A stretch of 64,000 bases of DNA from Chitinophagales bacterium (GCA_035638255.1 DASRAJ010000157.1:94827-158826), one strand, 5' to 3'; positions 33,523 to 49,737 are shown, counted from the first letter of the stretch. Translations and numbers: made by a program. The notes: generated by a model not told the origin, from the sequence alone.

Positions 33523-34599
33523 TCAATTTTCAACTACGAATTTCTTCACATCATTCCTTCCATCATGACTCACTTGTAATAAGTAAGTTCCGGAGGAGAA
33601 ACCCTGCGAGTCAAGTTGCTTTGAAAATATCCCTGTAACCGTTCCAAGATTTTCCGAATACAATTCTTTCCCCGAAAGATCGAATACTTTCATGGTGATC
33701 ATGCTTGGTTCAGGCGATTGAAGTTGAATGCTTAAACTATTAGCGGCAGGATTTGAAAGGATATTGAAGGATAAGGAACCTGTTTCTTCAAAGATGCCTG
33801 TAACACTTTCGTCAGCATAACCATCGCAATTGTCATCAATTCCATTGCGGACAATTTCTTTGACATCGGGATGAACAGCAGGATTTGAATCATCACAGTC
33901 ATTATTTACACTTGAATAAGCTCCATCGGGACTCACTGAGAAAATATATCCGGGAGCATTCATCGCTCCATAACTATCGCCGTCATCATCAGGATAGAAG
34001 ACGACACTACCTATATCTCCTGCTTTAATCATCTTGTTAGGGGTGGCTTCATAGGCATAATCAAGTATGGTGCATGGGGATGCCTCACTACTGACAGAGA
34101 GTCTTACCCAACCATAATGCAGTTCTCCATTAAAATTGAAACGCAGACCGAGATACTTTTTTTCCTGACTAATCCAGTTGCCGGATGTATAACGATATCC
34201 GCTTGTAAAGGATAATGAGAAATATGCTAAGGTTTGGCTCGACATATCGTCCCACTTTAATTGCGGATCAATATTATCACCGGCATTGAGAACAGCGGGG
34301 TAAAATTCAATTTGAGCACCAGGATAATTTTCAACGTTTGCGACCTCATTGTTGTCAACCGGCGAGACGTATACGTAACCGGTTTCAGTGCCTGTAGAGG
34401 AATATAGATAGGTGGTGATCCAATAGTCAACTAAGCCATCATTGTTTAAATCGAGTGAGTAAACTGAATTCAGTGAGACGGCATCAGGATTGACATCTGT
34501 GTAAACTATTTGAGCGTCGGCCAGTTTTGAGCCTGCGAGCAGACAACCAGCCATTGCTGAGTACTGCTTAAGTTTTTTACTGAGTGTGGCATTTTTCAT
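33523..34599 (-). CDS. secreted protein with MopE-like Cys/Asp motif and T9SS C-terminal domain
   Basis: NNDCDDSNPAVHPD...NGIDDNCDG putative metal-binding motif. CTD with GTYLLQVSHDG..VKKFVVEN. The start is moved to MKNATLSKK. Confidence 0.75.
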   Translation of the reverse strand: MKNATLSKKLKQYSAMAGCLLAGSKLADAQIVYTDVNPDAVSLNSVYSLDLNNDGLVDYWITTYLYSSTGTETGYVYVSPVDNNEVANVENYPGAQIEFYPAVLNAGDNIDPQLKWDDMSSQTLAYFSLSFTSGYRYTSGNWISQEKKYLGLRFNFNGELHYGWVRLSVSSEASPCTILDYAYEATPNKMIKAGDIGSVVFYPDDDGDSYGAMNAPGYIFSVSPDGAYSSVNNDCDDSNPAVHPDVKEIVRNGIDDNCDGYADESVTGIFEETGSLSFNILSNPAANSLSIQLQSPEPSMITMKVFDLSGKELYSENLGTVTGIFSKQLDSQGFSSGTYLLQVSHDGRNDVKKFVVEN

Positions 34600-34869
34600 A
34601 GGTGAGATTTTTAGAGCGTGAATTAATATCAGGAGACATAACACTGCATTTCTCTGCACTGTTGTTGGGAATGCGCTTGTTATGTTCCATGATTGGTAAA
34701 TCTAACGCAATAGATATCAGGTTTCGTGTATCTAATAAAAAATTTCTAAACTGTGACAAAGTGATTTAAGTGAACCTCGTTCGGGCGAGACAATTTTCTC
34801 CATGAAAAAAATATTCATGCTCATCTCAAGCAAAGCAATCTCTCGGCTTTCAAGTCCGAATTTTTTTTT

Positions 34870-35871: not shown

Positions 35872-38043
35872 CTATGGAAGAGGTGCAATGGCAATGGCTG
35901 CGGTGTCACCTGCATCGAGATAATCCAGCGAGTTAACACCATCAGTATGCGTCGCATCAACGTGCAAGGTTTCTGCAAATGCTGCCTGCGGACAGGTACC
36001 AAGCATGGTGCCCACCGGGATTACTTTTGAATAAGCATCGAGCGGACTTGCTCCCATGGGTGAATTACCAACGGTGTAGAAATTATTTCCAATGGTTACT
36101 GCACCGGCTGAATTGCCTTCGATTACAGGATTGCTGTTTCCTTTCGTCACATTGAAACTATAGGTCGCAAAGTCGTGCGGATGTCCGGCAACGAAACGCA
36201 GCGTAACATTGTCCGTAGCCTTGTCATTGTAATAGCCAAAGCCGCACACGGTATCTGTAGTACCACTTGGAACAATCGCATCCTGAACATCAGCATAACA
36301 GTGATTATTATCAATGCGCATATAAAAACGGAATGCAATGGCCAGTCCCGCACCATTCTTGACCACATAGTGTTCGGGCAATCCATCGGCTGTTACCGTT
36401 TCCTGGGAAGGATCGAGAACAATGTCGGAAGGTTTCTTGGAAACCACATACGTGTCTGCAGGTATAGCCTGAACAACACCGGCCGCATTGACCAATTCGA
36501 AGGTTAGTTCATAGAGGCCTTCCATGGATAGTCCTGTTGTATTCAGATAAATGGTTGCCGTGTCCTGCCGTTCCCATTCTGCTCCCGGTTCGGGTACATC
36601 CAGTACTGCATCCGTATGCGGTATTTTATATTGAGCGTTTCCGCCAACCATTGCTGCACCCATCGGAAAATTATTAGAAGCGAATTGTGTATGTCCGGCC
36701 ACTACAATCGGATAGGTATAGTGCTTTGCAATATCTCCGGAGAGGTTATGATCGCCATCAGCAATAGGATTCAGGTTCCCGTCAAAAATTCTTTTAAACC
36801 TCCAGCGATAATGCGATGCGGCGGCGTTCGGGAATCCTGCACCGAACTGAACTACGAGTGGAAACGTGCTTCCAAACGGACTGATGTTTCCATAACCTCC
36901 GTATTGTGTAAGACCAACGGCGTCCGCCAAATGACCGCTGGCTGCGTGAGACTGTTGAATGCCCCGAATACTTGCTCCGAAGTTGATGCTCTTCATCCAG
37001 ATCACATCACCCGGCAATGGATCGCAAGAGCAGGGCCTCACCCGGTCATCATAGATGCGGATGTTGATGTCCGTTCCGCAGGGATAATTCCACCAGGTGT
37101 GGCAAGGTTTAAAGGGACGATAAACCGTTACCCAATTACCATCAATCAATACCTCAACCCAGACGTAAATGTTCTTGCCGCCGAAGTCCCAGAAGCTGAA
37201 ATCGAAATGACCGTTGCAATCACTTTCTGCCACGCCTAATTCTGTGCAGCGATAGAACCACGGCCAAAACCAGGGCCATAAGCAGAAGTAGGGATGCAAA
37301 TCGGTAAAGTGTTCTAAAACAGAGCTCTTAATGGCAGATAGTGAATCAGAGATGATGGCTGTTTGAACTTTTGCAGGAAGCGTAGGCAACGCAATCGTTT
37401 TGGCATTGCCGGTTGTAGAACTCATAACCTTTGCCATCCTGATACCCGGAACTCCTGATAGGAATGGTGGGTCCGGTGGATTGGGATTCGGGATGGGAAT
37501 TGGAATGCGTTCTTTCGGCCAGTCAATATGCGGGCGAAGCTTGGTGGCTAAATCAATGAATACCCAATCGGGGATATGGTTCCACCAAATAATAATCGGA
37601 TCAATATCACACACATGAACTCTTGCATCGCAAACAGGCAATATCTTCTCGACTCCATCAATGATAAACGATTTGGTCAGGTTACCTGTAATGTGACACC
37701 ATGGCCAGAAGATGGGCCAGTCAATGTGAGGTATAGCCGTAACATCAATTGTATGCTCAGGAGAAATAATGGTGGAGGTTTGAAATCCGCCCGCATTCTT
37801 CAACATGCCCGCTGAAACATTTTGAGCTAACTCTTTCGGCATTGGCGGGCCTATGATAAGTTGAACCTGGCCTCGCATAAGCGCCACCGGAGTTTCCAAT
37901 GTTGCCTCTCCTTTTGAAATGGGTTTAGACTCCAGCAATTTGCCGGTAGCATTTTCGAATACATAGGCATGAGCATTTTTCAATGCTTCGTGATGCCTGC
38001 TGTCAATTTTTAGTTTGACAGGCTTTGATCTTGTGTCTTTCAT
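35872..38043 (-). CDS. 723-aa orphan protein, no signal peptide
   Basis: Long uninterrupted ORF. Trp/Pro-rich patches (IDWPIFWPWCH, CLWPWFWPWFYRC, PIPIPNPNPPDPP) and a beta-rich C-terminal half. It is preceded by a partial copy of the shared leader. Confidence 0.75.
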   Translation of the reverse strand: MKDTRSKPVKLKIDSRHHEALKNAHAYVFENATGKLLESKPISKGEATLETPVALMRGQVQLIIGPPMPKELAQNVSAGMLKNAGGFQTSTIISPEHTIDVTAIPHIDWPIFWPWCHITGNLTKSFIIDGVEKILPVCDARVHVCDIDPIIIWWNHIPDWVFIDLATKLRPHIDWPKERIPIPIPNPNPPDPPFLSGVPGIRMAKVMSSTTGNAKTIALPTLPAKVQTAIISDSLSAIKSSVLEHFTDLHPYFCLWPWFWPWFYRCTELGVAESDCNGHFDFSFWDFGGKNIYVWVEVLIDGNWVTVYRPFKPCHTWWNYPCGTDINIRIYDDRVRPCSCDPLPGDVIWMKSINFGASIRGIQQSHAASGHLADAVGLTQYGGYGNISPFGSTFPLVVQFGAGFPNAAASHYRWRFKRIFDGNLNPIADGDHNLSGDIAKHYTYPIVVAGHTQFASNNFPMGAAMVGGNAQYKIPHTDAVLDVPEPGAEWERQDTATIYLNTTGLSMEGLYELTFELVNAAGVVQAIPADTYVVSKKPSDIVLDPSQETVTADGLPEHYVVKNGAGLAIAFRFYMRIDNNHCYADVQDAIVPSGTTDTVCGFGYYNDKATDNVTLRFVAGHPHDFATYSFNVTKGNSNPVIEGNSAGAVTIGNNFYTVGNSPMGASPLDAYSKVIPVGTMLGTCPQAAFAETLHVDATHTDGVNSLDYLDAGDTAAIAIAPLP

Positions 38044-38110
38044 AAGTTATTTTTTTTGCCTACTCTATTTCCCTTTTCAGCTTCCGGGTGCTTACTCTTT
38101 TCTTAGGATT
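38044..38110 (-). promoter_or_regulatory. partial copy of shared 5-prime leader (proximal block)
   Basis: ttttgcctactctatttcccttttcagcttccgggtgcttactctttt parallels ttttcgcctactcgttcccttttcggctgccgggtgcttactcttttt at 41593-41640. Confidence 0.6.
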
Positions 38111-38263
38111 TTCAGCTTGCTCCTTCTTTATCACATCTATAGTTCCGGGGAATCCATTCGCTGGCCTTCGACAAAGGCTAAAGCATTCTTGAAATATGGA
38201 TTAGTGGGATCTCTTCTTTCCTTTGCCTGATTTTATTCTGCATTTAGCATTAAGAGACAGGAA

Positions 38264-38743
38264 TTAATAAAGAAGCGTTAGTGAAGTATATCCTTCACTG
38301 CTATCGGTGCTTAGCATTATATCCCGTCCGAAATAAAAACGATTGTAATTTTCCTGCCAGGCAAATGAATCTATAGTGCCGGGAATAAATTGCAGGTCAC
38401 CGCTGACAATCGTACTGTCAATATTTACCTTCTCCCATGCATCATCTCCCTCAGCGATGAGCTTTACTTTCAGGTGACCACTTAGACCGTTTTCAAATTC
38501 TTTATAGCAGGGGAGGGCAGTGCCTGAAAAGGCAACTCCGGGACCATCGGGGTTTTTAAATTCCCAACAGTAAGCTGCATCGGAATCTTTACCGAGGCGA
38601 AGTGTGCGGCCCGGTTCCAGATTGGCGCGTTGAAGTAATTCATTATCACGATAGATTTCAAGGACTACAGGAGCGTTACTTCTGCTCCACCAGTTGTGAC
38701 CGGTTTGAATTGTCCAATAAACTTTGGTTACTTTAGTTGACAT
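38264..38743 (-). CDS. 159-aa PLAT/LH2-like beta-sandwich protein (tentative), no signal peptide
   Basis: VYWTIQTGHNWWSRSNAPVVLEIYRDNELL...LGKDSDAAYCWEF...LKVKLIAEGDDAWEKVNI follows the PLAT pattern (T.G....gTda.V...l.G.......L........f.rg......F......g.l..i.i..d..g....W....v). The assignment is by pattern only. Confidence 0.65.
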   Translation of the reverse strand: MSTKVTKVYWTIQTGHNWWSRSNAPVVLEIYRDNELLQRANLEPGRTLRLGKDSDAAYCWEFKNPDGPGVAFSGTALPCYKEFENGLSGHLKVKLIAEGDDAWEKVNIDSTIVSGDLQFIPGTIDSFAWQENYNRFYFGRDIMLSTDSSEGYTSLTLLY

Positions 38744-39035
38744 GACTTTTGATTTTGTTTTTTTCGCCTATTCCTAAAACCATTTCGGCTTCCGAATACT
38801 TCCTCTTTTTATCCCGTTCTTTCAGTGCTTACGGGCACAGGAAAGAGGGGCAAGGATTTTTAGCAAACTCCTATATGAATTGATTTATGAAAATGCTGTT
38901 GTTTTAAATCTTATGGCAGCAAAGGTGCAGTTCAGCGCTACTCCAGTACAACGGGAAAAACACCAGTAACCGCGGGTGATTTAACGGGGGTGAAAGAGCG
39001 GTTATATAGGAAGGAATAGGTTCTTTGCAGCAGAT
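38744..39035 (-). promoter_or_regulatory. shared leader/promoter module, copy 1 (proximal block plus shortened distal block)
   Basis: Contains the block ctctttttatcccgttctttcagtgcttacgggcacaggaaagaggggcaaggatttttagcaaactcctatat (about 74 nt), which I read as identical to copy 2. It also has the distal gcagcaaaggtgca...acaacgggaaaaacacc...gggtgatttaacgggggtgaaagagcggtt. Confidence 0.75.
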
Positions 39036-39323
39036 AAATCATCTACAAAATCATGGAAACAAATAATTCAATGGACAAACCTATAGGACATGGCGGGGCT
39101 ACAGCTATTAATACCGCATTTTGCAGTTCAATAAAATGAACCGCAGACCTGTCCCGATTTTTTTCGGGAGAGCGCAAAGAATTTCGCAGAGAAAAAAGGC
39201 AAAGTTTGACACCAGATAATTTGTAACTTTTTCTTTGTGCTATTCTTTGCGTTTTACTCCGGGTTCTTTGCGACAAAAATTCGAACTGCAAATTTCGGGT
39301 TAATCGGTTGTTCTTCGATTGTT

Positions 39324-40226
39324 TTAACCCTCTTTAAGCAATCTTGCAACAGCATTAGCAATCGGTAGTCCTGTCTTCAATTCAAAGTATGAAAATGCCG
39401 GTGAAGCATTTACTTCAAAGCAATACCATTCGCCTTTTGAAGTGCACCGCAGATCAATGCCTGATAGATGGAAGCCCAGGTGTTTGGAGAGCTCGATGCA
39501 ATTATTTTCAACAGCTTGCGGCAGGGTTACAATTTCCATTTCAGTTTGAGAGTAACGATAGTCTTCAGCAACAGAATGGATTTTGCAACTAAACGTACGA
39601 GTACCCACCACGTGTACTCGATAGTCAGTGCCTGCAATAAATTGCTGGAATTGTGTGGGGCAAAATTGGACATCCTTCATCCGAACGTAATCTTCGTCAG
39701 ACAATTTACGGACAATACTTCGAATTCCGCTGATGGATTTATAAATGATTTGTCCATGTCGCTTCCAAAATTTCTTCAGTTCATATGGAGACGTGGTTAT
39801 TAATGTTTCAGGTATAGAGAAGCCGAAATTCCCGATGATTGAACATTGATAAGGTTTGGAATGATTGGAAGCCATCAAAGAAGGACGGTTAATAACCAAA
39901 GCGTCGGTCATTTCAGACCAGCTCCATAGAATGTCTTCCGCCGCCGCCATTTGCTGAATATGACTATCAGTTGTGTCAAGGGCTTCATACTCCTCATAAT
40001 CCCTGAAATTATAAGTTCTAAAATAACATGTGCTGATATCGCTAACTGAAATTTTTTCTCCATAAATCTCTATCGTTCCTTTCAGCTTTGGAATAAAATT
40101 GATTTTTACTTTCAGCTCATCTAAATCGCGGTGGTTAAGAAAATAGAACGGTACATTCATTCGCTTCAATTCGTCAAACACCATTTGCATCGGTGTATCA
40201 TCTAACAGTCCCCAAAGCAGTATCAT
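39324..40226 (-). CDS. ATP-grasp enzyme (MvdD/MdnC/RimK-like)
   Basis: NHSKPYQCSIIGNFGFSIPETLIT....LKKFW......IYKSISG...TQFQQFIAGTDYRVHVVGTRTFSCKIHS...DYRY....IVTLP......C.ELSKHLGFHLSGIDLR.T..GEWYCFEVNASPAFSYFE..TGLPIANAVARLL parallels microviridin-type ATP-grasp ligases. The start is moved to MILLWGLLDD (ATG at 40226, 1 nt after the upstream stop). Confidence 0.8.
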   Translation of the reverse strand: MILLWGLLDDTPMQMVFDELKRMNVPFYFLNHRDLDELKVKINFIPKLKGTIEIYGEKISVSDISTCYFRTYNFRDYEEYEALDTTDSHIQQMAAAEDILWSWSEMTDALVINRPSLMASNHSKPYQCSIIGNFGFSIPETLITTSPYELKKFWKRHGQIIYKSISGIRSIVRKLSDEDYVRMKDVQFCPTQFQQFIAGTDYRVHVVGTRTFSCKIHSVAEDYRYSQTEMEIVTLPQAVENNCIELSKHLGFHLSGIDLRCTSKGEWYCFEVNASPAFSYFELKTGLPIANAVARLLKEG

Positions 40227-40227
40227 G

Positions 40228-40926
40228 TCAAGTTTTTTTTGAAAAGAATTTAATGATTGCAGCAGCCACTTTTTTGTCATTAATATCGGGAAACTGAGAT
40301 GCATGTGCAAACTTCCATTCGCCATCAAAATTTCTTTTGAAACCGACTTGCAATAGATTTAAGTTCGTCACTTCAGCTAACCGGAGTGAATAATTTTGAA
40401 GCACTGCATTCTTTGTACCGATACATTTTCGCCCAATAACAGTTATTCTCGCATAGTCTTCATTTTTCAATGTGTTTGTTGTATAAGACCTTGTATTGGA
40501 TCTCTTCAATGATAGGGTAGGGATGGCTTGTTGCTGTGCCAATTTCATCCAATATTCTAATCTCCACAGTTGACCATTCAAGCAAGTGGGCGAAGGAGGG
40601 TTGAGTACAGGACATTTCAACTGTGAAAGAAACCATAGCATGAACGCATTCATTTCGCTGGCCACATAACTACGGTCTTCTTTATTTATTTGGACCAATT
40701 CCATCGGATAGATATTTGGAATAAGCGTGAGAACTCCTGAGATATTTCCAAGTTGGATTTTTTTACCCGATGCAACAATGCTTCCCTTCTCAATTTGATG
40801 GAAGAGAATATCTGTATCCTTTCTCGACAGATCCATACTCGTAAGTAAAGAGGCCGCCCCCCTGGTAAACTTATTTACCAAAGAAGCGGCTGCTTCGTCA
40901 AGAATGCTTGCAATTACCAGGACCAT
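40228..40926 (-). CDS. short ATP-grasp-like partner protein (N-terminal/central-domain-like, no obvious catalytic C-terminus)
   Basis: 232 aa. MVLVIASILDEAA...VLTLIPNIYP...YVASEMNAFMLWFLSQLKCPVLNPPS resembles the pre-ATP-grasp and substrate-clamp part of MdnB/C-type enzymes. Its start overlaps the upstream stop (TAATG). Confidence 0.6.
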   Translation of the reverse strand: MVLVIASILDEAAASLVNKFTRGAASLLTSMDLSRKDTDILFHQIEKGSIVASGKKIQLGNISGVLTLIPNIYPMELVQINKEDRSYVASEMNAFMLWFLSQLKCPVLNPPSPTCLNGQLWRLEYWMKLAQQQAIPTLSLKRSNTRSYTTNTLKNEDYARITVIGRKCIGTKNAVLQNYSLRLAEVTNLNLLQVGFKRNFDGEWKFAHASQFPDINDKKVAAAIIKFFSKKT

Positions 40927-41576
40927 TAGTTCTTGTTGCCTTTTCTTGCGGCTTTAGCTACTTTGCTTCCTACGGCAGGGCGTTCAGTTGATTTTATGAA
41001 AGCAGGGTTTTGACCAATAGTTTTTTCAAGCCCTTCTAAACGCTGTTCAACAGAGGCAAGCCATGCGGGATCACCAATATTTTGGAATGGGTCTCCTACT
41101 TCAGCATCTTTTAGCTTAGGAATTTCTATCTCCCGCTTTTGATGTACCTCATAAATAAATTCCTTATACTCTTTGAATTCTTTGAAATCTTTAATGAACT
41201 CCTTATGGGTCTCTTTGATATCTTTATTCTCTTTAATAAACTTGTGAAAAGGTTGGAAGCAAGTGAGAACAAGATCATTAAAATCCCCATCGCCGGCATC
41301 TTCTGATAAAATGTCGAAGGACACACCTGTTCCTAAAACAGTAGGGGAAGTAAGCTGCATAGCGGAATCCCGAAAAACGCCACTGCCAGGATTATTTTGG
41401 ATTTGAATCGTCCAGGGAAATCCGGCTCCGGCAAGTACAGTTACCGGCGGTGAGCCAACAGTGCCCGGATGAGGGCCGTTGTTTGTTCCGCCGCCGCTTA
41501 CTACAAACTGCTGAGCAAAAGCAGCAGACTTGGATTTTACAGTAATGGTCCAAGTTCCATGCATTGTAAGTGACAT
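40926..41576 (-). CDS. 216-aa protein: LecB/DUF4114-like calcium-lectin motif domain plus KEF-repeat charged tail, no signal peptide
   Basis: FDILSEDAGDGDFNDLVLTCFQP aligns with the LecB (PA-IIL) C-terminus FALVGSEDGTDNDYNDAVVVINWP, recalled from memory. It is followed by HKFIKENKDIKETHKEFIKDFKEFKEYKEFIYE. Confidence 0.7.
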   Translation of the reverse strand: MSLTMHGTWTITVKSKSAAFAQQFVVSGGGTNNGPHPGTVGSPPVTVLAGAGFPWTIQIQNNPGSGVFRDSAMQLTSPTVLGTGVSFDILSEDAGDGDFNDLVLTCFQPFHKFIKENKDIKETHKEFIKDFKEFKEYKEFIYEVHQKREIEIPKLKDAEVGDPFQNIGDPAWLASVEQRLEGLEKTIGQNPAFIKSTERPAVGSKVAKAARKGNKN

Positions 41577-41925
41577 AAGTTAAAGTTTTTACTTTTTCGC
41601 CTACTCGTTCCCTTTTCGGCTGCCGGGTGCTTACTCTTTTTATCCCGTTCTTTCAGTGCTTACGGGCACAGGAAAGAGGGGCAAGGATTTTTAGCAAACT
41701 CCTATATAATTAATTTTTAAACCTTCCGGTCTGTTAAGTCTGTGTAAAAGTTGATGAAAGCTGTTGCACATCTGAAAAGAAATTCTTTTAATCTTGTCGC
41801 AGCAAAGGTGCAGTGCAGCGATACCGCCGTACAACGGGAAAAATACCGGAAGCCGGGGGTGATTTAACGGGGGTGAAAGAGCGGTTGTATAAGAAAGAAT
41901 GAGTGGGTTCCTTGTATAGGATAAA
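41577..41925 (-). promoter_or_regulatory. shared leader/promoter module, copy 2 (full length)
   Basis: Proximal block 41577-41712 matches copy 1. Distal block 41719-41925 is nearly identical to 46097-46300. It contains the direct repeat GGGGGTGA-N6-GGGGGTGA (41855-41876). Confidence 0.75.
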
Positions 41926-42096
41926 CATTGTTGGCTTTAACTTTCAATCCAGTAAGCCGATATTAGTCTTGCAATCGCATACTTTACCACATCTGACCAA
42001 TTTCAATAACCAGTACCAGAAGTTATAAGTAATTCAATATTCCAGACAACAAGAAAGGATTGATGGTTGTTAACCATTTCAGGTTGCTTCGACTAT

Positions 42097-43287
42097 TCAA
42101 TCAAGCATTAGCGGGGGAAAGGCGGCTTCTGAATATGCCTGTTCTATTTTTCTAACCGTTTTTTCCCAGAGCCACTTTTTCCTTACCTCTTTTGCCCCGG
42201 CTATTCCAAGCCGCTTGCGAAGTGAAGTGTTTCTTGATAACTCGATAATGGATTCTGCCAGCGCATTGGGGTTTTTTGGAGGGACTAATTTTGCAGACAC
42301 ATTATGAGCTAAGATTTCAGATGGACCTCCAATGTTTGTTGCAACTATAGGCAAACCATATAGCATTCCTTCAAGAACAACCATACCAAAGGGTTCATAC
42401 CAGCTTGGAATCACCAGCATGTCTGCTTTTTCATACCATCCGTTTATTTCGCCAGGTGTAAGCCAACCTGTGAAATGCACTTGGTTTTTAAAGGGGGTAA
42501 GTGTATCAACCAAGCATTCTTTTTCGATTTCAACACCTCCGCCATAACCGCCTGCCAAAACAAATTTGGCCTTAGGGAAAGAGGTAAGTACTGTTGGAAT
42601 AGCATCTATCAAATCCCAAATTCCCTTTCGCTCTACAAATCTTCCGGTGTATAAAATAGTCAACTCAGTTTCTTTCCATTCGCGTTTTATAGAAGATAGC
42701 TCTGCCTCTTTATAATCTTCAATTCCGTTTCCTGCTACGCTTACTTTGTTTATTGCCTGAGGATAATATTCGGCCAGTATTTCCTTTTCACTTTCTGAAA
42801 TGGCAATGATTCGATCTGATTCATCGATGGCTTGTTCCTGCACCTGCCAGTGATTAAAAAGTTTCCCCACCTCATACTCAGCCTTGTCAATCGAATGCAC
42901 GGTAAAAACAATTGGGCAGTTACATCTTTCGCGTATTCTCATTGCGACAGGTAGTAACCATGCAGTGTGCAGATGTATAATATCAGGCACCCAATATTCT
43001 GATAACACATCAGCGATCTTCCATGCTTCGTTGGGAGCGACGTGAAAGAATAAAATATTTTCACGAACAATGATTTTTTCAGTGGAGAATTGATCTCTCA
43101 GGTCTTCCATTGAGTTGGTCTCCCAGCTTCCATAAGGCTGTTTATTCAGAACCAAAGCCCCACCGACAAGCAATACTCCAACTGAATAATGTTCTTTAGC
43201 GAGCGCTTTTGTCAATCCGCCTACTGCTGTACCGAGGCCTCCCCAAATTATAGGAGGATATTCCGGCGTTATGTGAAGGATTTTCAT
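42097..43287 (-). CDS. family 4 glycosyltransferase (glycogen-synthase-like GT-B)
   Basis: MKILHITPEYPP..WGGLG N-terminus and EPFGMVVLEGMLYGLPIVATNIGGPSEI (E-x7-E region). Confidence 0.85.
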   Translation of the reverse strand: MKILHITPEYPPIIWGGLGTAVGGLTKALAKEHYSVGVLLVGGALVLNKQPYGSWETNSMEDLRDQFSTEKIIVRENILFFHVAPNEAWKIADVLSEYWVPDIIHLHTAWLLPVAMRIRERCNCPIVFTVHSIDKAEYEVGKLFNHWQVQEQAIDESDRIIAISESEKEILAEYYPQAINKVSVAGNGIEDYKEAELSSIKREWKETELTILYTGRFVERKGIWDLIDAIPTVLTSFPKAKFVLAGGYGGGVEIEKECLVDTLTPFKNQVHFTGWLTPGEINGWYEKADMLVIPSWYEPFGMVVLEGMLYGLPIVATNIGGPSEILAHNVSAKLVPPKNPNALAESIIELSRNTSLRKRLGIAGAKEVRKKWLWEKTVRKIEQAYSEAAFPPLMLD

Positions 43288-43370
43288 GTATGATTCACGA
43301 CTAAAACTTTTTTATATCATAGAACATCTCAGCATTGTATTTTAAGGCATTGTTTAAAGAACAACAGGTT

Positions 43371-45866
43371 CTAAATTGCTTTGAACTGAATCCTTCTGAA
43401 TGATACCCTGCCAGTGTGCGTTTGCAATCCAACAAAATGGGTAACATCACTTCCTCTTAGCGGATCAGGATTAGAATAATCTGTTACTAAGCTCCCGTTG
43501 AGGAAGACATTGTAATTCTGACCGATGCACAGAATTTCCATTTGATTCCACTCTCCAGGATTTTTTAATTGCGGATTATTAGGCGCAGCAAATCCATAGA
43601 TGGCCGCGGTTTTATGAATATCCAAACCAGGGGGATTTCCCTCTCCGATGTTATTAATCTGAACCTCGAAGCCAAAATTGATAGCCACGTAAGCCGTGTT
43701 ATCAAAACCCTTGCTGTCTATATTAGGGAAGCGAACGAATACTCCGGAATTATCATCGTCACGCCATGTGAGAAACTCCAGTTTCAAGCTGTAATTCTGT
43801 GGCATCGCATCGGTATAATAAAGTAATCCTAAATCATTTCCTGGCTGTGATTCTAAAGCGCCACGTACGATATTAAAGCTACCGGGATTATCCCGGCCCG
43901 GTTGATTTTTAATGGTGCTCATCTTCCATTTACTCAAGTCAACTCCGTTAAACATCATTGTATAACCGGCATCGGGTACATCAGGAGGAACAATAAATTG
44001 ATCGGCTAACCTTCTTGCGAGTCCAACCCCAGTCAACATCGGATTAGGTGATCCTACTGTCGGAAACAGAACAGGTCCTGCGGCATAAGCATTGGAAACG
44101 AAATGAAATTTCCCGGTTTCATCCGTAACCGAATTCATGGGGTCACTGCCCATCCATAAAGTGCCGGCTTCATGATGCGTGGTGCCCATGCCATCTCGCC
44201 TTCCGCCATTCCAGCGATAGTCATAAGCATATAGGGCTTTCAAATCAGTAGCGGCGTTAGCAGGAAGCCATGCGTTTGAATTCGACAGCACCTCGAAATC
44301 TTCTCCATCAGCAAAAACTTTTGCAACATCATCTGAAGCTTTATCCATTGCATCCCACAATGCCATATCATTTGCGTTTAGACTATACGTGATGAAAGCG
44401 CGGGTTACTCCAACTTCATCAACCGGTTGCTCTGTAGCGAGGCGTATAAAACTTCCGGGATTTCTTGCTTCGGTTTCACCTATGCCCCTGATAGTAATAA
44501 CAACCGTAGTATCACTTGATTGGTTGAGCGCGTTGACAGAATCGAAGTCAGGAATTTTTTTGAAAAGCTCAGCTTCTGAATCTGTTGTTGGCTTTGAAAC
44601 TCCCGAAGCTGTTATCTGCAAATGGAAGAATCCTTTCTTGCCATTACCGCGATCGTGAGCGCCTTTAACAAACAGTGCAGATGCTTCGAGGGCTTGCAAT
44701 ACTGAACCCAGATTTTTTACTGACGTGCGCGGAATTCGTATAGTGAGATTCGATCGCAAATGCGCCATCAGGTTCTGGCCAATAAGGTTGTAGTTATTAA
44801 TTCCCTGAAAAGAAAGTAATGCCAGGCGGGTATTTTCAATGGTACCAATTGCGAGCACCACTTTGGTGCTTTCAGCAAGTGAGATAAATCCCTGCGTGGT
44901 TTCGATGCCGGTTACATGTGCAGTACCGTTAATTATTTCGGTTTGCAAACGAATTACCCTGCAATGCGGAACCACCATCAATCTCTTCTTAACATCATCA
45001 GGAGTGCCGTTGTGCATTGATTCGTTCGAGGCCTTTCGTGTTGAATCAATCATAAGTGGTACAGCACTGAATTTATTGATTGGAAATAATCCCGAAGCAC
45101 TCTTGGTTTGCACGGCGAGCGGCGCTTCTAATTTGAACTCGTTTACCTTTAATGGAGAAGAACCCGGAGGCGTTCCCGGATTAACAGGTAGCTTATTGAA
45201 AGGTATAGCATCAGAAATGTTTCCGTTCTTTATGCCGTCATGCAATTGCTTTCTGAGAGCATTATGAAGACCTCCATGGATAAAATCGTTACTAACATCG
45301 GTTCCTATTTGTGAGGCAGCTTCGGCGAAATACTTATTGTTAAGCTCATCCTTAACTATAGATGGCCATTTGTCATCAGGCATTTCAGTTAGGCCATTTA
45401 AATTTAAAAGTTGCGGCGACCAACCACCAAAAAATACTGACCTGCCTCCTAAACAATAGGACAGCCCTGGGAAGCCACCTTTAACATCCGAGCGCCATGG
45501 CAATCCCCATATTTCATTTCGTGGCACCATGGGATCAATTTCCGTTGCGCCGGGCGGAACGAGACCCAGTATGGGATAATTCTGAAAATGCTCACTCAGG
45601 ACAAATGGTCCTGCTTCAAGAATGAGAATGCGGTGGCTGTGACTTTTGTCTTTTTCAAAAAGATGTTGGGCAAACACAGGCCCGAAACTGCCACCGCCAA
45701 TCACTATAATGTCAAATGGGAGTGCATCGTTTTGCGGACTTCCGTCTTTGCGGCTTCGTCCCTTATCTGTACTGTTGATTGCTTCATCAAAACCATTGCA
45801 GATATATCTTCCCAATACATCTTTCGAAAAATCGGTTTCCTGAGATTTAATTGCTGTCATAAACAA
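43371..45866 (-). CDS. GMC-family FAD oxidoreductase fused to a C-terminal DUF1080 (3-keto-disaccharide-hydrolase-like) domain
   Basis: IIVIGGGSFGPVFAQ...ILILEAGP Rossmann motif. HHEAGTLWMG.D...SVTDETGKFH.VSNAYAAGPVLFPTVGSPNPMLTGVGLARR is the GMC C-terminal catalytic region. The C-terminal ~200 aa (MMFNGVDLSKWK...FEVQI...GEWNQMEI...FLNG...VGLQTHTGRVSFRRIQFK) are DUF1080-like. Confidence 0.8.
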   Translation of the reverse strand: MFMTAIKSQETDFSKDVLGRYICNGFDEAINSTDKGRSRKDGSPQNDALPFDIIVIGGGSFGPVFAQHLFEKDKSHSHRILILEAGPFVLSEHFQNYPILGLVPPGATEIDPMVPRNEIWGLPWRSDVKGGFPGLSYCLGGRSVFFGGWSPQLLNLNGLTEMPDDKWPSIVKDELNNKYFAEAASQIGTDVSNDFIHGGLHNALRKQLHDGIKNGNISDAIPFNKLPVNPGTPPGSSPLKVNEFKLEAPLAVQTKSASGLFPINKFSAVPLMIDSTRKASNESMHNGTPDDVKKRLMVVPHCRVIRLQTEIINGTAHVTGIETTQGFISLAESTKVVLAIGTIENTRLALLSFQGINNYNLIGQNLMAHLRSNLTIRIPRTSVKNLGSVLQALEASALFVKGAHDRGNGKKGFFHLQITASGVSKPTTDSEAELFKKIPDFDSVNALNQSSDTTVVITIRGIGETEARNPGSFIRLATEQPVDEVGVTRAFITYSLNANDMALWDAMDKASDDVAKVFADGEDFEVLSNSNAWLPANAATDLKALYAYDYRWNGGRRDGMGTTHHEAGTLWMGSDPMNSVTDETGKFHFVSNAYAAGPVLFPTVGSPNPMLTGVGLARRLADQFIVPPDVPDAGYTMMFNGVDLSKWKMSTIKNQPGRDNPGSFNIVRGALESQPGNDLGLLYYTDAMPQNYSLKLEFLTWRDDDNSGVFVRFPNIDSKGFDNTAYVAINFGFEVQINNIGEGNPPGLDIHKTAAIYGFAAPNNPQLKNPGEWNQMEILCIGQNYNVFLNGSLVTDYSNPDPLRGSDVTHFVGLQTHTGRVSFRRIQFKAI

Positions 45867-46096
45867 AAAGGTTTTAAGGTATTTGAATCTGCAGTTTATT
45901 TTTTTTGACTTAGGATTAAGGGGCGTTATAAAGATTTTCTGTAACCTTCGTTTTTATTTTTAAGGTTGATTTTTGTAAAATAGTTGAAGCCTTTTTTTTC
46001 AAATCGATTCAGATAGCATGTGAAGATATTCGTCAAGTACGGAAATCCTGATCTCTCGCCACTTTCAATCCCATTTAATATATTTAGGCTCTGGTT

Positions 46097-46300
46097 AAAA
46101 TCTTTCGGTCTGTTAAGCCTGTGTAAAAGTTGATGAAAGCTATTGCACATCTGAAAAGAAATTCTTTTAATCTTGTCGCAGCAAAGGTGCAAGACAACGC
46201 TACCGCAACACAACGGGAAAAACACCAGGAGCCGGGGGTGATTTAACGGGGGTGAAAGAGCGGTTGTATAAGAAAGGAAGGAATAGGTTCTTTGCAGCGA
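46097..46300 (-). promoter_or_regulatory. shared distal promoter/leader block, copy 3 (between the GMC gene and the divergent lipoprotein gene)
   Basis: Near-identical to 41719-41925 apart from a ~25-nt variable patch. The proximal block is absent here. Confidence 0.7.
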
Positions 46301-46340
46301 ATAAATAATCTATAAAAAAACTTGGTTAAACAATTCTCCT

Positions 46341-47521: not shown

Positions 47522-48241
47522 TTGCGAAGAAATCCCCACCGCCCAGTGAGTGATTTCTTCAAGGATATTTTTACGTGGATTCCTTTCGATGTTGAGCTTG
47601 GAACTGTTCTCATCTTTATCCTTTTTTCCAAAACACTTACAACAGAAGAAGTAATGGCAGCGGTAATAATTTTTGTTTCCTGGTTGATGGATGTTTTCAG
47701 CGATGCTATAACATTCAGTTATCATCCATTCTGGTTACTGCTTCAGGAGCACAGTAATCTCTGGTTCCCGAATTATAGCATGCCCATCATTTTCGCTTTG
47801 TATGCTATTTTGTATTTCTATCTTTTTCGAAAGCTGGAAATAAAATGGATAGTAGTATCCGGTTTCATGTTTTTTCTGTTACTCCATGTTGTCAACTTAT
47901 TATATTACCAGGGTTACCGGGGAACTGCAAGCAATTCATTGCTCGCCGGTCAGCTGCTAATTGGCGCCCTGGCATTTTTATACCTCCGGCATGTTGTGGA
48001 AACATCAGATGAGTCACCTTTTCGGAATTTTATGTTTTGGTTCTCTGCTGCAACATTGCTGAGTAATTTTGTTACGGCGCCTGTGACTTCCCTTTTAAGC
48101 TGGCTCCCATCAAATGACCCTAAAGTTTTTGGTGCGCTTTATAGTATTATTGGATTGTACATCGGTTACTACCTCAGTTACTTAATCATCATCATTGGAT
48201 TATTATGGACCCGAAAGCGTGGGATATTATTTTTTCAGTAG
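47522..48241 (+). CDS. multi-pass membrane protein, probably the detached sensor module of the downstream histidine kinase
   Basis: Six or so TM helices. It ends 37 nt inside the next ORF in another frame, at a T6 run. Confidence 0.55.
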   Translation: MRRNPHRPVSDFFKDIFTWIPFDVELGTVLIFILFSKTLTTEEVMAAVIIFVSWLMDVFSDAITFSYHPFWLLLQEHSNLWFPNYSMPIIFALYAILYFYLFRKLEIKWIVVSGFMFFLLLHVVNLLYYQGYRGTASNSLLAGQLLIGALAFLYLRHVVETSDESPFRNFMFWFSAATLLSNFVTAPVTSLLSWLPSNDPKVFGALYSIIGLYIGYYLSYLIIIIGLLWTRKRGILFFQ

Positions 48242-48999
48242 GCATTAGCACCTTCGCATTGCTTGTGCTTTTTGTGCTGGTAATCAATTTGCTTTTGGTG
48301 AGCCGCAACAAAAGGCTGACACACCGCAATGAGGTCCTTGAAATGAAAACCTCCTTCGAGAAAGAGTTGATGAAAACACAAGTGGAAGTCGCAGAAAATA
48401 CACTCAACGATATTGCCCGCGATTTGCACGATGATGTAGGACAGATGCTTACGTTCAGCATCATTCAGCTTAACAACATTCGACCGATGCCCGATGCAGC
48501 GACAGAAAAAAATATCGCGGCAGCCCGCGAGTCGGTACAAAACACACTTCAAAGTGTACGCAGTATTTCGAAAACACTCAGCAATGATTATCTTTCTTCT
48601 TTTGGAATGGAGGAATCTTTAAAGAGATTGTTTGAGCGAATTGCAAGACAGGGTATCGTCAGGACTACTCTTGTTTTCCCTGCAAACGTCCTGTTTAGTT
48701 CCCGGTCTAATGAAGTGTTTGCCTTTCGCATTATTCAGGAATTGGTCACAAATACTCTGAAACATTCCGGTGCAACAGAATTGTCACTGATCATCAGCGA
48801 AGCGGACGGTAATATTCAAATAGAGTATAGTGACAACGGCAAAGGGTTGCATGGAGATCAATTTAACAATGAGCAACTAAAAAACAGCCTGGGCTTTACG
48901 AATATTTTCAAGCGGGCGGAATTAATGCATGGCGAAATCACCATTTCAAATAATTCAGAAGGTGGATTCTATCTTCGTCTTTCATTTCCGAATAAGTAA
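48205..48999 (+). CDS. HisKA_3-type sensor histidine kinase (kinase core)
   Basis: H-box ARDLHDDVGQMLT, N-box ELVTNTLKHSGA, G1 DNGKGL, C-terminal GEITISNNSEGGFYLRLSFP. Confidence 0.8.
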   Translation: MDPKAWDIIFSVGISTFALLVLFVLVINLLLVSRNKRLTHRNEVLEMKTSFEKELMKTQVEVAENTLNDIARDLHDDVGQMLTFSIIQLNNIRPMPDAATEKNIAAARESVQNTLQSVRSISKTLSNDYLSSFGMEESLKRLFERIARQGIVRTTLVFPANVLFSSRSNEVFAFRIIQELVTNTLKHSGATELSLIISEADGNIQIEYSDNGKGLHGDQFNNEQLKNSLGFTNIFKRAELMHGEITISNNSEGGFYLRLSFPNK

Positions 49000-49053
49000 G
49001 AGTATTTCAACGCGTGATCAAGAGCGCAAAATCAAAACGAAACCTTCCCCAAT

Positions 49054-49737
49054 ATGCAGATCAAAATTGCACTTACCGACGATCACCAATTGGTGCGAAG
49101 CGGCATAAAAATGCTCATTGAAAATTTTCCGGAATTCAAAGTTGTCGTCGAGGCATCAAATGGAAAGGAGCTTCTGGAAAAACTCGCACTGCTAAAAGTT
49201 CTGCCTGAAATTGCAATGGTTGATGTTGCTATGCCGGTAATGGATGGATTTGAAACAACAAGAGAGTTGATTAGACAATACCCAAAGCTGAGGGTTGTAG
49301 CCTTGTCAGTCCATGATGATCTCCAAAGCGTGAATAGTATGATTGAAAGCGGAGCGAATGCTTACTTACTCAAAGATTCTTCTCCGCAAATTGTAAGGAA
49401 CACGTTGCAGCAGGTTTTTGAAAAAGGATATTACTACGATAAGTTTGTGATCGAAAGTTTGATGAAAGCAAGGCAGAAGCAGCAAGATGATGAACTGAAA
49501 AAAAACAACAGGTCGGGCCGTAACTCCGGAATTGATCCTGCATCACTTCTCACAGTCAGAGAGATTGAGTTCATGAAGCATAGCTGCAGCGAACTCACCT
49601 ATAAAGAAATTGCTGACCTCATGGAGGTTAGTTTGCGAACAGTTGACGGCTATCGCGAATCGGTATTCTCCAAACTTGATTTGAAATCAAGAACCGGAAT
49701 TGTTTTGTATGCTATTCATAAAGGATTGGCCCAGTAA
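49054..49737 (+). CDS. NarL/LuxR-family response regulator
   Basis: REC domain (IALTDDH...MVDVAMPVMDG...ALSVH) and a C-terminal LuxR HTH (LTVREIEFMKHSCSELTYKEIADLMEVSLRTVDGYRESVFSKL). Confidence 0.9.
   Translation: MQIKIALTDDHQLVRSGIKMLIENFPEFKVVVEASNGKELLEKLALLKVLPEIAMVDVAMPVMDGFETTRELIRQYPKLRVVALSVHDDLQSVNSMIESGANAYLLKDSSPQIVRNTLQQVFEKGYYYDKFVIESLMKARQKQQDDELKKNNRSGRNSGIDPASLLTVREIEFMKHSCSELTYKEIADLMEVSLRTVDGYRESVFSKLDLKSRTGIVLYAIHKGLAQ

What the first reader, a model, noticed from the sequence alone, without database searches (positions are those of the whole stretch)
35872..46320. Ten-kb minus-strand cluster of signal-peptide-less orphan proteins tied together by a repeated leader module
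The cluster has four transcription units. They are the GMC::DUF1080 oxidoreductase plus GT4; the coupled trio of LecB-motif/KEF-repeat protein, short ATP-grasp-like protein and ATP-grasp enzyme; the PLAT-like 159-aa protein; and the 723-aa orphan. Each unit is preceded by a copy or partial copy of the same non-coding module (46097-46300, 41577-41925, 38744-39035, 38044-38110). Repeating a long, near-identical upstream sequence before every unit of a cluster suggests a dedicated common regulator or RNA leader. None of the proteins has a signal peptide, although the surrounding region is dominated by secreted T9SS cargo. I do not recognise this domain combination (calcium-lectin-like motif, PLAT-like sandwich, paired ATP-grasp proteins, sugar-oxidising GMC/DUF1080 fusion, GT4) as any described pathway, defence system or RiPP class. 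A HisKA_3/NarL two-component pair (47522-49737) and a lipoprotein gene lie immediately next to it and are candidate regulators or partners, but that link is pure inference.
Basis: partly seen in the sequence, partly recalled or inferred. Interest (0 to 1): 0.85.

Follow-up and report, generated by a model that had tools for sequence, protein, structure and literature searches.

The report
Shared RNA leader, protein-tail ATP-grasp operon
A 10-kb Bacteroidota gene cluster really does reuse one upstream sequence; its conserved core is a known but unexplained RNA motif (DUF805b) that also precedes related genes in distant bacteria, and the cluster's central operon looks like a rare enzyme system that chemically cross-links the tail of a lectin-like protein.

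Summary
Three about 220-nt copies (module A) and three copies of a start-proximal module lie upstream of the four minus-strand units and nowhere else in the 64-kb window. The start-proximal 70-85 nt is a tandem pair of Rfam DUF805b (RF02914) units ending 13-21 nt before the ATG. The same leader sits upstream of 723-aa homologues in two Mucilaginibacter-type genomes and in Dyella. It also sits upstream of the homologous tail-protein/ATP-grasp operon and of a multicopper oxidase on another contig. It is therefore a conserved cis-regulatory leader, not a MITE. Module A is specific to this lineage.

The proteins are not all orphans. The 723-aa protein belongs to a family with 171 hits, and it stands alone in the seven other genomes examined. 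The "trio" is a conserved, very rare operon: a protein with a Lys/Glu-repeat C-terminal tail, a truncated ATP-grasp-like partner, and a graspetide-synthetase-type ATP-grasp. Its closest precedents are corallotide-type large-precursor graspetides. The tail occurs on 22 proteins with unrelated N-terminal domains (tyrosinase-like, galactose-oxidase-like, subtilase, LecB-like).

Whole-cluster synteny is not conserved, so this looks like a leader-defined regulon rather than one pathway. I rate it a new variant of known kinds, of moderate to high interest.

The parts
43371..45860 (-). GMC oxidoreductase fused to DUF1080 (3-keto-disaccharide hydrolase domain), 829 aa from ATG 45860, no signal peptide
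   Evidence: Pfam GMC_oxred_C 2e-11 and 3keto-disac_hyd 2e-32; translation
42097..43287 (-). GT4 glycosyltransferase, 396 aa
   Evidence: Pfam Glycos_transf_1 4e-36 and Glyco_transf_4
40926..41576 (-). 216-aa protein. N-terminal part is a PA-IIL/LecB-like lectin domain (about residues 5-108). C-terminal part is the tail: Lys/Glu repeat (110-148), IPKLKDAEVGDP, a coiled coil, FIKSTERPAVG and a basic end. Proposed substrate of the ATP-grasp.
   Evidence: Top 13 PDB fold matches are all PA-IIL lectins. The Ca loop aligns to LecB. The tail is shared with P0123 and the L014 and L016 proteins and with 22 proteins in 1.84 billion representatives.
40228..40926 (-). 232-aa partner protein, probably a truncated, catalytically dead ATP-grasp paralogue. 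Its start overlaps the stop of the 216-aa gene.
   Evidence: hhalign is colinear with the ATP-grasp minus its central domain, E 4.5e-4, probability 33%. Found only in four trio loci.
39324..40226 (-). ATP-grasp enzyme of the graspetide-synthetase type, 300 aa, starting 1 nt after the partner gene's stop
   Evidence: NCBIfam TIGR04187 2e-39, MvdC/MvdD. PDB PsnB 7drm 2e-23, CdnC, MdnC. A DLR motif is conserved.
38264..38743 (-). 159-aa protein of unknown function, no signal peptide, preceded by the full module A plus tandem leader
   Evidence: No Pfam, NCBIfam or PDB sequence match
35872..38043 (-). 723-aa protein made of several beta-sandwich (Ig-like) domains with conserved Cys/Trp motifs. It belongs to a family of unknown function.
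   Evidence: 171 homologues. AF2 mean pLDDT 83, mostly beta. Only generic Ig/FN3 fold matches.
46095..46320 (-). Module A copy 1, between the lipoprotein gene and the GMC unit, about 230 nt upstream of the GMC start
41716..41945 (-). Module A copy 2, upstream of the trio
38880..39055 (-). Module A copy 3, upstream of the 159-aa gene; about 60 nt are deleted relative to copies 1 and 2
41598..41666 (-). Tandem DUF805b-class leader of the trio. Unit 1 variant (hairpin CCCG...CGGG plus AAAGAGUAAGCA) is at 41628-41666. Unit 2 is at 41598-41631. It ends 21 nt before the ATG.
   Evidence: Rfam 26.4 bits; R1 35.9 bits; alignment A12
38765..38835 (-). Tandem DUF805b-class leader of the 159-aa gene. Unit 1 variant is at 38797-38835 and unit 2 at 38765-38800. 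It ends 21 nt before the ATG.
   Evidence: R1 32.7 bits; alignment A12
38057..38125 (-). Tandem DUF805b leader of the 723-aa gene. Unit 1 is at 38089-38125 (above the Rfam gathering score). Unit 2 is at 38057-38088. It ends 13 nt before the ATG.
   Evidence: Rfam 41.0 bits against a gathering score of 35.6, and 23.0 bits; R1 44.6 and 20.7 bits
47522..49737 (+). Polytopic membrane protein, HisKA_3 kinase and NarL-type response regulator. Candidate regulator only; the link is unproven.
   Evidence: ORFs. The same three-gene architecture lies next to the 723-aa homologue in Mucilaginibacter sp. UYP25, but at only 26-27% identity.

Best explanation
The cluster is four adjacent transcription units for signal-peptide-less proteins. 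What links them is a shared cis-regulatory cassette, not a shared pathway.

Shown: the trio, the 159-aa gene and the 723-aa gene each carry a tandem pair of DUF805b-class RNA units immediately upstream of the start codon. Each unit is a 3-4 bp hairpin with a loop of the form GNAAGCYGAAAA, followed by AGAGUARGC and an A-rich spacer. The same leader precedes homologues of these genes, and other signal-less enzymes, in distant genomes.

Inferred: the leader acts on the mRNA at or near translation initiation and co-regulates a dispersed regulon. Module A and the 5' part of module B form a lineage-specific promoter/operator-plus-leader cassette that was copied in front of three units.

The enzymatic core is the coupled trio. 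Inferred: the graspetide-type ATP-grasp, working with a truncated inactive paralogue as partner, installs side-chain Lys-Glu (KxxxE) isopeptide macrolactams in the Lys/Glu-repeat C-terminal tail of the LecB-like protein. The conserved FIxxxERPxVG segment would serve as the recognition (follower) element.

GMC::DUF1080, GT4, the 159-aa protein and the 723-aa protein are co-located, and probably co-regulated, neighbours. No biochemical link between them and the trio has been demonstrated.
For: Leader:
- Rfam DUF805b hits lie on the coding strand 13-21 nt before the ATG of three units. An independent model finds no other copy in the 64-kb window.
- The hairpin shows compensatory changes, AGGA/UCCU versus CCC/GGG.
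- The same leader is found upstream of 723-aa homologues in L019 (tandem; Rfam 28.2 and 25.9 bits), L020 (35 bits) and Dyella L006 (32.9 bits).
- It is also found upstream of the tail-protein gene (tandem) and the multicopper oxidase gene in L014, and in diverged form in L010.
- Leader nucleotide identity between the window and L019 is 73%, against 41% amino-acid identity for the protein.
- There are no conserved terminal inverted repeats or target-site duplications.

Trio:
- The same three-gene order, with overlapping or abutting stop and start codons, is seen in L010, L011, L014 and L015; in L016 a 58-aa ORF lies between the tail protein and the partner. Identities are 47-57%.
- Only the tail of the first protein is conserved, not its N-terminal domain.
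- The ATP-grasp's best relatives are graspetide synthetases.
- There are seven Kxxx[ED] motifs in the tail.
- Precedents exist: KxxxD isopeptides in a 22-kDa precursor made by a TIGR04187 enzyme, and partner dependence (PMC13097080); (KxxE)n lactams and inactive cooperating ATP-grasp enzymes (PMC12848669).
Against: - No expression data exist. Transcription starts and any RNA-level action of the leader are inferred only.
- The GMC/GT4 unit lacks the DUF805b unit.
- Four of the eight 723-aa loci examined lack the leader (L002, L004, L017, L018).
- DUF805b was named for DUF805 genes, and no gene here is DUF805.
- The proposed loop-tail pseudoknot is not consistently supported (and later copies).
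- The ATP-grasp scores far below the TIGR04187 curated cut-off (135 against 350 bits).
- The partner's homology to ATP-grasp is weak (hhalign probability 33%).
- No chemistry has been shown. The tail could instead be a targeting or assembly module, and the true substrate could lie elsewhere.
Confidence: 0.55

Rival explanations
1. The seven genes form one biosynthetic pathway for a glycosylated or oxidised graspetide-like product. GT4 and GMC::DUF1080 tailor the modified tail protein, and the 159-aa and 723-aa proteins are accessory or immunity factors.
For: The genes are contiguous, on the same strand, and share module A. A signal-less multicopper oxidase with the same leader sits just upstream of the trio in L014. 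Oxidative tailoring enzymes are common in graspetide clusters (PMC13097080).
Against: The 723-aa gene stands alone in seven other genomes, with no ATP-grasp, GT4 or GMC nearby. L010 and L011 show the trio followed by non-coding sequence.
Confidence: 0.15
2. The repeated module works as DNA, not RNA. It is a promoter/operator cassette bound by a dedicated transcription factor, for example the adjacent NarL-type regulator, and the DUF805b similarity is incidental.
For: The invariant 28-mer of module A contains the direct repeat TCACCCCCG-N5-TCACCCCCG. Module A sits about 230 nt upstream of the GMC start, where an RNA leader role is unlikely. A HisKA_3/NarL set lies beside the cluster and beside the L020 homologue.
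Against: The start-proximal unit keeps a fixed distance of 13-21 nt to the ATG, lies on the coding strand only, shows compensatory stem changes, and is conserved in genomes that lack module A. The two two-component systems are only 26-27% identical.
Confidence: 0.2
3. The module copies are a mobile or selfish repeat (MITE-like) that landed in intergenic spaces by chance and has no role in expression.
For: Near-identity of 85-94% between copies placed in front of unrelated genes implies recent copying.
Against: All copies share one orientation, sit directly upstream of start codons, and are confined to 8 kb of a 64-kb window. No conserved terminal inverted repeats or target-site duplications were found. 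The 28-mer is absent from 185,579 species-representative genomes. The core is conserved upstream of homologous genes across phyla.
Confidence: 0.05
4. The Lys/Glu tail is not the ATP-grasp substrate. It is a targeting or self-assembly module (for secretion, a compartment or a matrix) carried by signal-less exoenzyme-like proteins. The ATP-grasp pair modifies something else, or ligates residues as RimK and tubulin glutamylases do.
For: The tail sits on many unrelated enzyme domains that normally act outside the cell, and they lack signal peptides. It is predicted to be a helix, then a disordered stretch, then a coiled coil. RimK-family similarity is also detected.
Against: Graspetide synthetases are much closer relatives than RimK (2e-39 against 1e-11). 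In four loci from independent samples the tail protein is translationally coupled to the enzyme pair, and the tail is the only conserved part of that protein.
Confidence: 0.2

Closest known systems
Rfam RF02914 DUF805b RNA motif (clan CL00115; candidate cis-regulatory RNA of Bacteroidota from comparative genomics; function unknown; origin in Weinberg et al. 2017 is from my own knowledge)
   Same: One unit scores above the gathering threshold and five more score 20-33 bits. The units share the small hairpin with a GGAAGCCGAAAA-type loop and the AGAGUAGGCA tail, and they sit immediately upstream of coding genes.
   Different: None of the downstream genes encodes a DUF805 protein. The units here are mostly tandem pairs. 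The downstream genes are a 723-aa Ig-like family, Lys/Glu-tail proteins with their ATP-grasp operon, a multicopper oxidase and a 159-aa protein. One instance is in a gammaproteobacterium (Dyella).
Corallotide-type graspetides (group 15; CorA/CorB; PMC13097080)
   Same: Both have a TIGR04187-like ATP-grasp, an unusually large precursor (about 22-24 kDa) with a folded N-terminal part, and repeated Kxxx(D/E) motifs. In corallotide these motifs become i/i+4 isopeptide macrolactams. Both synthetases depend on, or are coupled to, a partner protein.
   Different: There is no 2OG oxygenase or beta-lactamase here. The partner is a truncated ATP-grasp-like protein. The acceptor is Glu rather than Asp, in a [hydrophobic-K-E]n repeat. 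The conserved recognition-like motif lies C-terminal to the repeats. The N-terminal domains are interchangeable enzymes or lectins. The organisms are not Corallococcus.
'Branch 8' ATP-grasp loci of Makarova et al. 2022 (PMC8939145)
   Same: Both have an ATP-grasp plus a truncated, inactive ATP-grasp paralogue. Both are associated with peptidases of unrelated families, and no small precursor is detectable.
   Different: Membership could not be tested because the branch 8 sequences are not at hand. In the loci here the adjacent large protein carries a conserved Lys/Glu tail, which would make it the substrate. That idea is not raised in the passages I read; the paper screened only proteins of 150 aa or fewer as precursor candidates.
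PA-IIL / LecB family of calcium-dependent fucose/mannose lectins
   Same: The fold matches (TM 0.55-0.62 normalised to the target, probability 1.0), and the acidic Ca-binding loop is conserved: SEDAGDGDFND against SEDGTDNDYND.
   Different: My hmmscan found no Pfam hit, although a precomputed PF07472 hit is on record. The domain does not end at the C-terminal Gly whose carboxylate completes the LecB Ca site; it continues into a 110-residue tail.

Membership tests
Rfam DUF805b (RF02914) | Covariance-model score at or above the gathering threshold (35.6 bits) | tested here: met
   38089-38125 scores 41.0 bits. The other units score 20.8-32.9 bits, below threshold, but align as homologues of the member.
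Rfam DUF805b (RF02914) | Short hairpin supported by compensatory changes | tested here: met
   All 4 stem pairs show changes on both sides across 9 copies. 72% of stem cells are paired, the covariation score exceeds all 500 shuffles, and it exceeds every slid register. The sample is small and the copies are partly related.
Rfam DUF805b (RF02914) | Located upstream of genes encoding DUF805 (PF05656) proteins | tested here: not met
   No DUF805 hit for any downstream protein in the window. The downstream genes in L014, L019, L020 and L006 are tail proteins, a multicopper oxidase and 723-aa homologues.
Graspetide (omega-ester/amide peptide) biosynthetic system | ATP-grasp enzyme of the graspetide-synthetase clade | tested here: met
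   The six best PDB sequence matches are PsnB, CdnC, MdnC, an MvdD-like protein, MdnB and AMdnB (2e-23 to 7e-7). The best NCBIfam match is TIGR04187 at 2e-39, but 135 bits is below the curated cut-off of 350.
Graspetide (omega-ester/amide peptide) biosynthetic system | Catalytic D-F-R type motif retained | tested here: met
   D258-L259-R260 are invariant in the three trio ATP-grasp sequences. The aligned stretch of the 232-aa partner family shows no conserved D-x-R. The motif definition is from PMC13097080.
Graspetide (omega-ester/amide peptide) biosynthetic system | Adjacent precursor with donor (Lys/Thr/Ser) and acceptor (Asp/Glu) residues in repeated core motifs | tested here: met
   The 216-aa protein has 7 Kxxx[ED] motifs in its tail. 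Homologous tails have [hydrophobic-K-E]n or KD(T/G) repeats.
Graspetide (omega-ester/amide peptide) biosynthetic system | Side-chain macrolactone or macrolactam cross-links actually present in the product | not testable with these tools
   This needs co-expression and mass spectrometry.
Corallotide-type group 15 | Strictly co-occurring 2OG-Fe(II) oxygenase and beta-lactamase-fold protein | tested here: not met
   No such domains appear among the seven cluster proteins or in L010, L014 or L016.
Makarova 2022 branch 8 ATP-grasp loci | Truncated, inactive ATP-grasp paralogue encoded beside the active enzyme | tested here: inconclusive
   hhalign gives E 4.5e-4 and probability 33%, colinear, with the central domain missing. 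Pairwise BLAST gives E 0.026. Phylogenetic placement in branch 8 was not tested.
PA-IIL / LecB lectins | PA-IIL beta-sandwich fold with the acidic Ca-binding loop | tested here: met
   The top 13 Foldseek PDB hits are all PA-IIL family members. The loop aligns with the acidic and Asn residues of the LecB Ca-binding loop motif conserved. The model's pLDDT is only about 60 in this domain.
PLAT/LH2 domain (159-aa protein) | Match to PLAT profile or fold | tested here: not met
   No Pfam hit even at E up to 10 and no PDB sequence hit.
MITE / mobile repeat | Terminal inverted repeats, target-site duplications, dispersed copies without gene-class preference | tested here: not met
   No conserved inverted termini or flanking duplications. 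All copies are confined to the cluster and share one orientation. The rest of the source genome is not available.

The most novel reading that the evidence does not exclude
The tandem DUF805b leader is a sensor-type, riboswitch-like translational control element. It defines a dispersed, horizontally mobile regulon of signal-peptide-less proteins of extracellular type: Ig-like 723-aa proteins, copper oxidases and lectins.

Within that regulon, a previously unrecognised protein-tail modification system operates. It consists of an ATP-grasp plus a dead ATP-grasp partner, and it cross-links a portable Lys/Glu-repeat C-terminal tail. This would also explain the 'precursor-less', peptidase-associated branch 8 graspetide loci: there, the neighbouring large protein itself is the substrate.
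Probability: 0.3. Interest if true: 0.8.

Novelty: new variant of a known kind. Interest (0 to 1): 0.62.

Why it matters
DUF805b is an orphan RNA motif with no known ligand, partner or regulon. Here it is linked to a concrete and unexpected gene set, in tandem form, and it is more conserved than the proteins it precedes. One example is in a cultured strain, Mucilaginibacter sp. UYP25. That makes its function directly testable.

The trio points to enzyme-installed side-chain cross-links on full-size proteins (lectins, tyrosinase-like, galactose-oxidase-like, proteases) through a portable C-terminal tail. This extends graspetide chemistry from peptides to a protein tag. It also offers an answer to a published puzzle: ATP-grasp loci with a truncated paralogue and no detectable precursor.

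Tried and rejected
- Exact 28-mer of module A against 185,579 species genomes: no match. Module A is lineage-specific and no comparative data could be obtained for it.
- Relatives of the 232-aa partner in genome contigs and metagenome contigs: only the already known L010 contig was found.
- Small ORFs inside module A, on either strand, as hidden precursor peptides: rejected. The plus-strand 37-codon ORF is disrupted in copy 3, and by my count from the sequences copies 1 and 2 differ by about 8 non-synonymous and 3 synonymous changes.
- RNAalifold on module A: a weak structure with no compensatory pairs.
- H-type pseudoknot (loop GCY pairing with tail RGC): it looked good on 9 copies. Three unit-1 variants (window 216 and 159 leaders, L019) have GCA opposite AGC, so it is left as inconclusive.
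- Bacteroidetes -33/-7 promoter scan: only one TAnnTTTG-type site in the four intergenic regions, so the promoters remain unassigned.
- Fold searches of the 723-aa model against PDB and the viral library: only generic Ig/FN3 matches with TM about 0.1-0.2.
- PADLOC defence models: nothing relevant.
- The L002 145-aa neighbour as a homologue of the 159-aa protein: no.
- Literature search for the tail motifs (FIRPEERP and others): no paper.
- The text of Weinberg 2017 held here does not mention DUF805, and its supplements are not held.

Full report
OBSERVATION

Seven minus-strand ORFs lie between 35872 and 45866. They are a GMC::DUF1080 fusion, a GT4 glycosyltransferase, a coupled trio (216, 232 and 334/300 aa), a 159-aa ORF and a 723-aa ORF.

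- Module A is about 220 nt and has three copies: 46095-46320, 41716-41945 and 38880-39055. Copies 1 and 2 are 91% identical over 182 nt without gaps and 85% over the gapped alignment.
- A 28-mer within module A is identical in all three copies and is found nowhere else in the window; zero matches are expected by chance.
- A second, start-proximal module (module B) has two full copies (41577-41715 and 38744-38879) with a 97-nt core at 94% identity. A related copy lies at 38044-38127.
- All copies are on the coding strand, directly upstream of a unit.
- There are no conserved terminal inverted repeats or flanking duplications.
- The GMC/GT4 unit has only module A, ending about 230 nt before its start. 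The 723-aa gene has only the start-proximal element.

WHAT THE START-PROXIMAL ELEMENT IS

It matches Rfam DUF805b (RF02914), a cis-regulatory RNA motif.

- 38089-38125 scores 41.0 bits, above the gathering score of 35.6.
- 41598-41629 scores 26.4 bits and 38057-38088 scores 23.0 bits.
- The leaders are tandem pairs. Unit 1 is a hairpin, AGGA-loop-UCCU or the module-B variant CCCG-UAAGCACUGAAAGAA-CGGG, followed by AAAGAGUAAGCA. Unit 2 is CCC-GGNAGCYGAAAA-GGG followed by AGAGUAGGC and an A-rich spacer.
- Each pair ends 13-21 nt before the ATG.
- A model built from nine units finds only these four significant positions in the whole window with filters off.
- The stem shows compensatory changes.

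THE LEADER ELSEWHERE

Comparative data decide the question. The same leader appears in the following places.

- As a tandem pair, 19 nt upstream of the tail-protein gene of the homologous trio on contig L014, and as a single unit 19 nt upstream of the neighbouring signal-less multicopper oxidase gene.
- In diverged form upstream of the trio in L010.
- As a tandem pair upstream of a 723-aa homologue (41% amino-acid identity) in a Mucilaginibacter-type contig, L019. This was confirmed independently by Rfam at 28.2 and 25.9 bits.
- As a single unit upstream of the homologue in Mucilaginibacter sp. UYP25 (L020, 35 bits).
- As a single unit in the gammaproteobacterium Dyella koreensis (L006, 32.9 bits), where it overlaps a start codon that is probably annotated too far upstream.

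Leader nucleotide identity between the window and L019 or L014 is 73-74%, which is higher than the identity of the proteins. Four other 723-aa loci (L002, L004, L017, L018) lack the leader. None of the downstream proteins is a DUF805 protein.

The element is therefore a conserved, gene-class-associated leader. It is not a MITE, and it is not new as a motif. Module A has no counterpart in L014, L019 or L020 or in species-representative genomes. It appears specific to this lineage, and I read it as the promoter/operator part of a duplicated regulatory cassette. That reading is an inference.

THE PROTEINS

The 723-aa protein is not an orphan.

- It has 171 homologues of 700-760 aa in Bacteroidota and some Proteobacteria.
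- A confident AlphaFold model (mean pLDDT 83) shows a mostly-beta model with several beta-sandwich domains.
- Fold matches are only generic Ig/FN3.
- In seven other genomes it stands alone among unrelated genes.

The trio is a real and very rare operon.

- The 232-aa family has only four loci in 5.8 billion proteins plus the JGI and GTDB scans.
- In each locus the order is tail protein, then an approximately 232-aa protein, then an approximately 300-aa ATP-grasp, with overlapping or abutting stops and starts (in L016 a 58-aa ORF follows the tail protein). Identities are 47-57%.
- The ATP-grasp is of the graspetide-synthetase type: TIGR04187 at 2e-39; PDB PsnB at 2e-23, then CdnC and MdnC. It keeps the D-x-R motif.
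- The 232-aa protein aligns colinearly with the ATP-grasp but lacks the central domain and the D-x-R motif (hhalign E 4.5e-4, weak).

The first gene of the trio varies in its N-terminal domain but keeps its C-terminal tail.

- Here the N-terminal domain is a PA-IIL/LecB-like lectin. The top 13 PDB fold matches are all PA-IIL lectins, and the Ca loop is conserved.
- In L010 and L014 the N-terminal domain looks tyrosinase-like by eye; it has no Pfam hit.
- The tail consists of [hydrophobic-K-E]n or KD(T/G) repeats, then IPKLKDAEGDP, a coiled coil, FI(R/K)xxERPxVG and a basic end.
- An exhaustive phmmer search with the tail found 22 proteins. In the 21 retrieved sequences the tail is C-terminal. 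It sits on kelch/galactose-oxidase-like, subtilase, M11-like, tyrosinase-like and unannotated domains, and the complete sequences lack N-terminal signal peptides by eye.

MECHANISM (INFERRED)

The ATP-grasp, with its dead paralogue as partner, forms Lys-Glu side-chain lactams in the Kxxx(E) repeats. The FIxxxERPxVG segment serves as the recognition element. Three published precedents support this.

- Corallotide: a 22-kDa precursor with five KxxxD isopeptides made by a TIGR04187 enzyme that needs a partner (PMC13097080).
- (KxxE)n lactams and inactive cooperating ATP-grasp enzymes (PMC12848669).
- The 'branch 8' loci, which have a truncated ATP-grasp, unrelated peptidases and no detectable precursor (PMC8939145).

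WHAT REMAINS OPEN

- The roles of GMC::DUF1080, GT4 and the 159-aa protein are unknown.
- The 'PLAT-like' label has no sequence support.
- The HisKA_3/NarL link gains one weak parallel in L020: the same three-gene architecture, but at 26-27% identity.
- No defence-system models match.

VERDICT

This is a leader-defined set of co-located genes built around a rare, graspetide-like protein-tail modification operon. It is a new variant of known kinds, not a categorically new system.

Noticed in passing
L020:12387-14567 and window 47522-49737: A three-gene set (polytopic membrane protein, single-TM HisKA_3 kinase, NarL-type regulator) lies next to the 723-aa homologue in Mucilaginibacter sp. UYP25, just as it lies next to the window cluster. 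Identity is only 26-27%, so orthology is unproven. The two-gene membrane-plus-kinase layout in both places suggests that the overlap at window 48205-48241 is genuine and not a frameshift.
   Followed up: partly
L006:9992-10043 (Dyella koreensis): The annotated start of P0073 lies inside the DUF805b unit. The true start is probably the ATG 42 nt downstream (MKMKTQ...), which matches the family's N-terminus. A Bacteroidota-type leader in a gammaproteobacterium suggests that the gene and its leader were transferred together.
   Followed up: partly
window 33523-34659; L014:295-2241; tail proteins P0128-P0146: There is a copper theme. A MopE-like Cu-binding T9SS protein flanks the cluster. A signal-less multicopper oxidase carries the leader in L014. 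Many tail proteins have tyrosinase-like or galactose-oxidase-like domains.
   Followed up: no
window 39056-39323: The 270-nt spacer between the ATP-grasp stop and module A copy 3 holds an inverted repeat with 24-nt arms (39173-39196 and 39228-39251). It also holds extra copies of the GCAAAGAACC motif that marks the 5' edge of each module A. This may be a terminator, an operator, or both.
   Followed up: no
window 46236-46263, 41857-41884, 38974-39001: The invariant 28-mer of module A contains the direct repeat TCACCCCCG-N5-TCACCCCCG, which looks like a tandem protein-binding site.
   Followed up: no
L007:678-9502: A LecB-like protein without the Lys/Glu tail (P0122, 55% identical over the lectin domain) sits in a different same-strand cluster. 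That cluster has DUF6345, a 983-aa protein and several small unannotated proteins, and no ATP-grasp.
   Followed up: no
window 45860-45866 and 40226-40328: The mechanical ORF starts are probably too long. The GMC gene more likely starts at ATG 45860 than at TTG 45866. The ATP-grasp more likely starts at ATG 40226 (MILLWG..., conserved in L010 and L014) than at TTG 40328.
   Followed up: yes
L016:1-351: The most distant trio locus has a tail with KD(T/G/A) triplet repeats in place of Lys/Glu repeats, and an extra 58-aa coiled-coil ORF lies between the tail protein and the partner gene.
   Followed up: no
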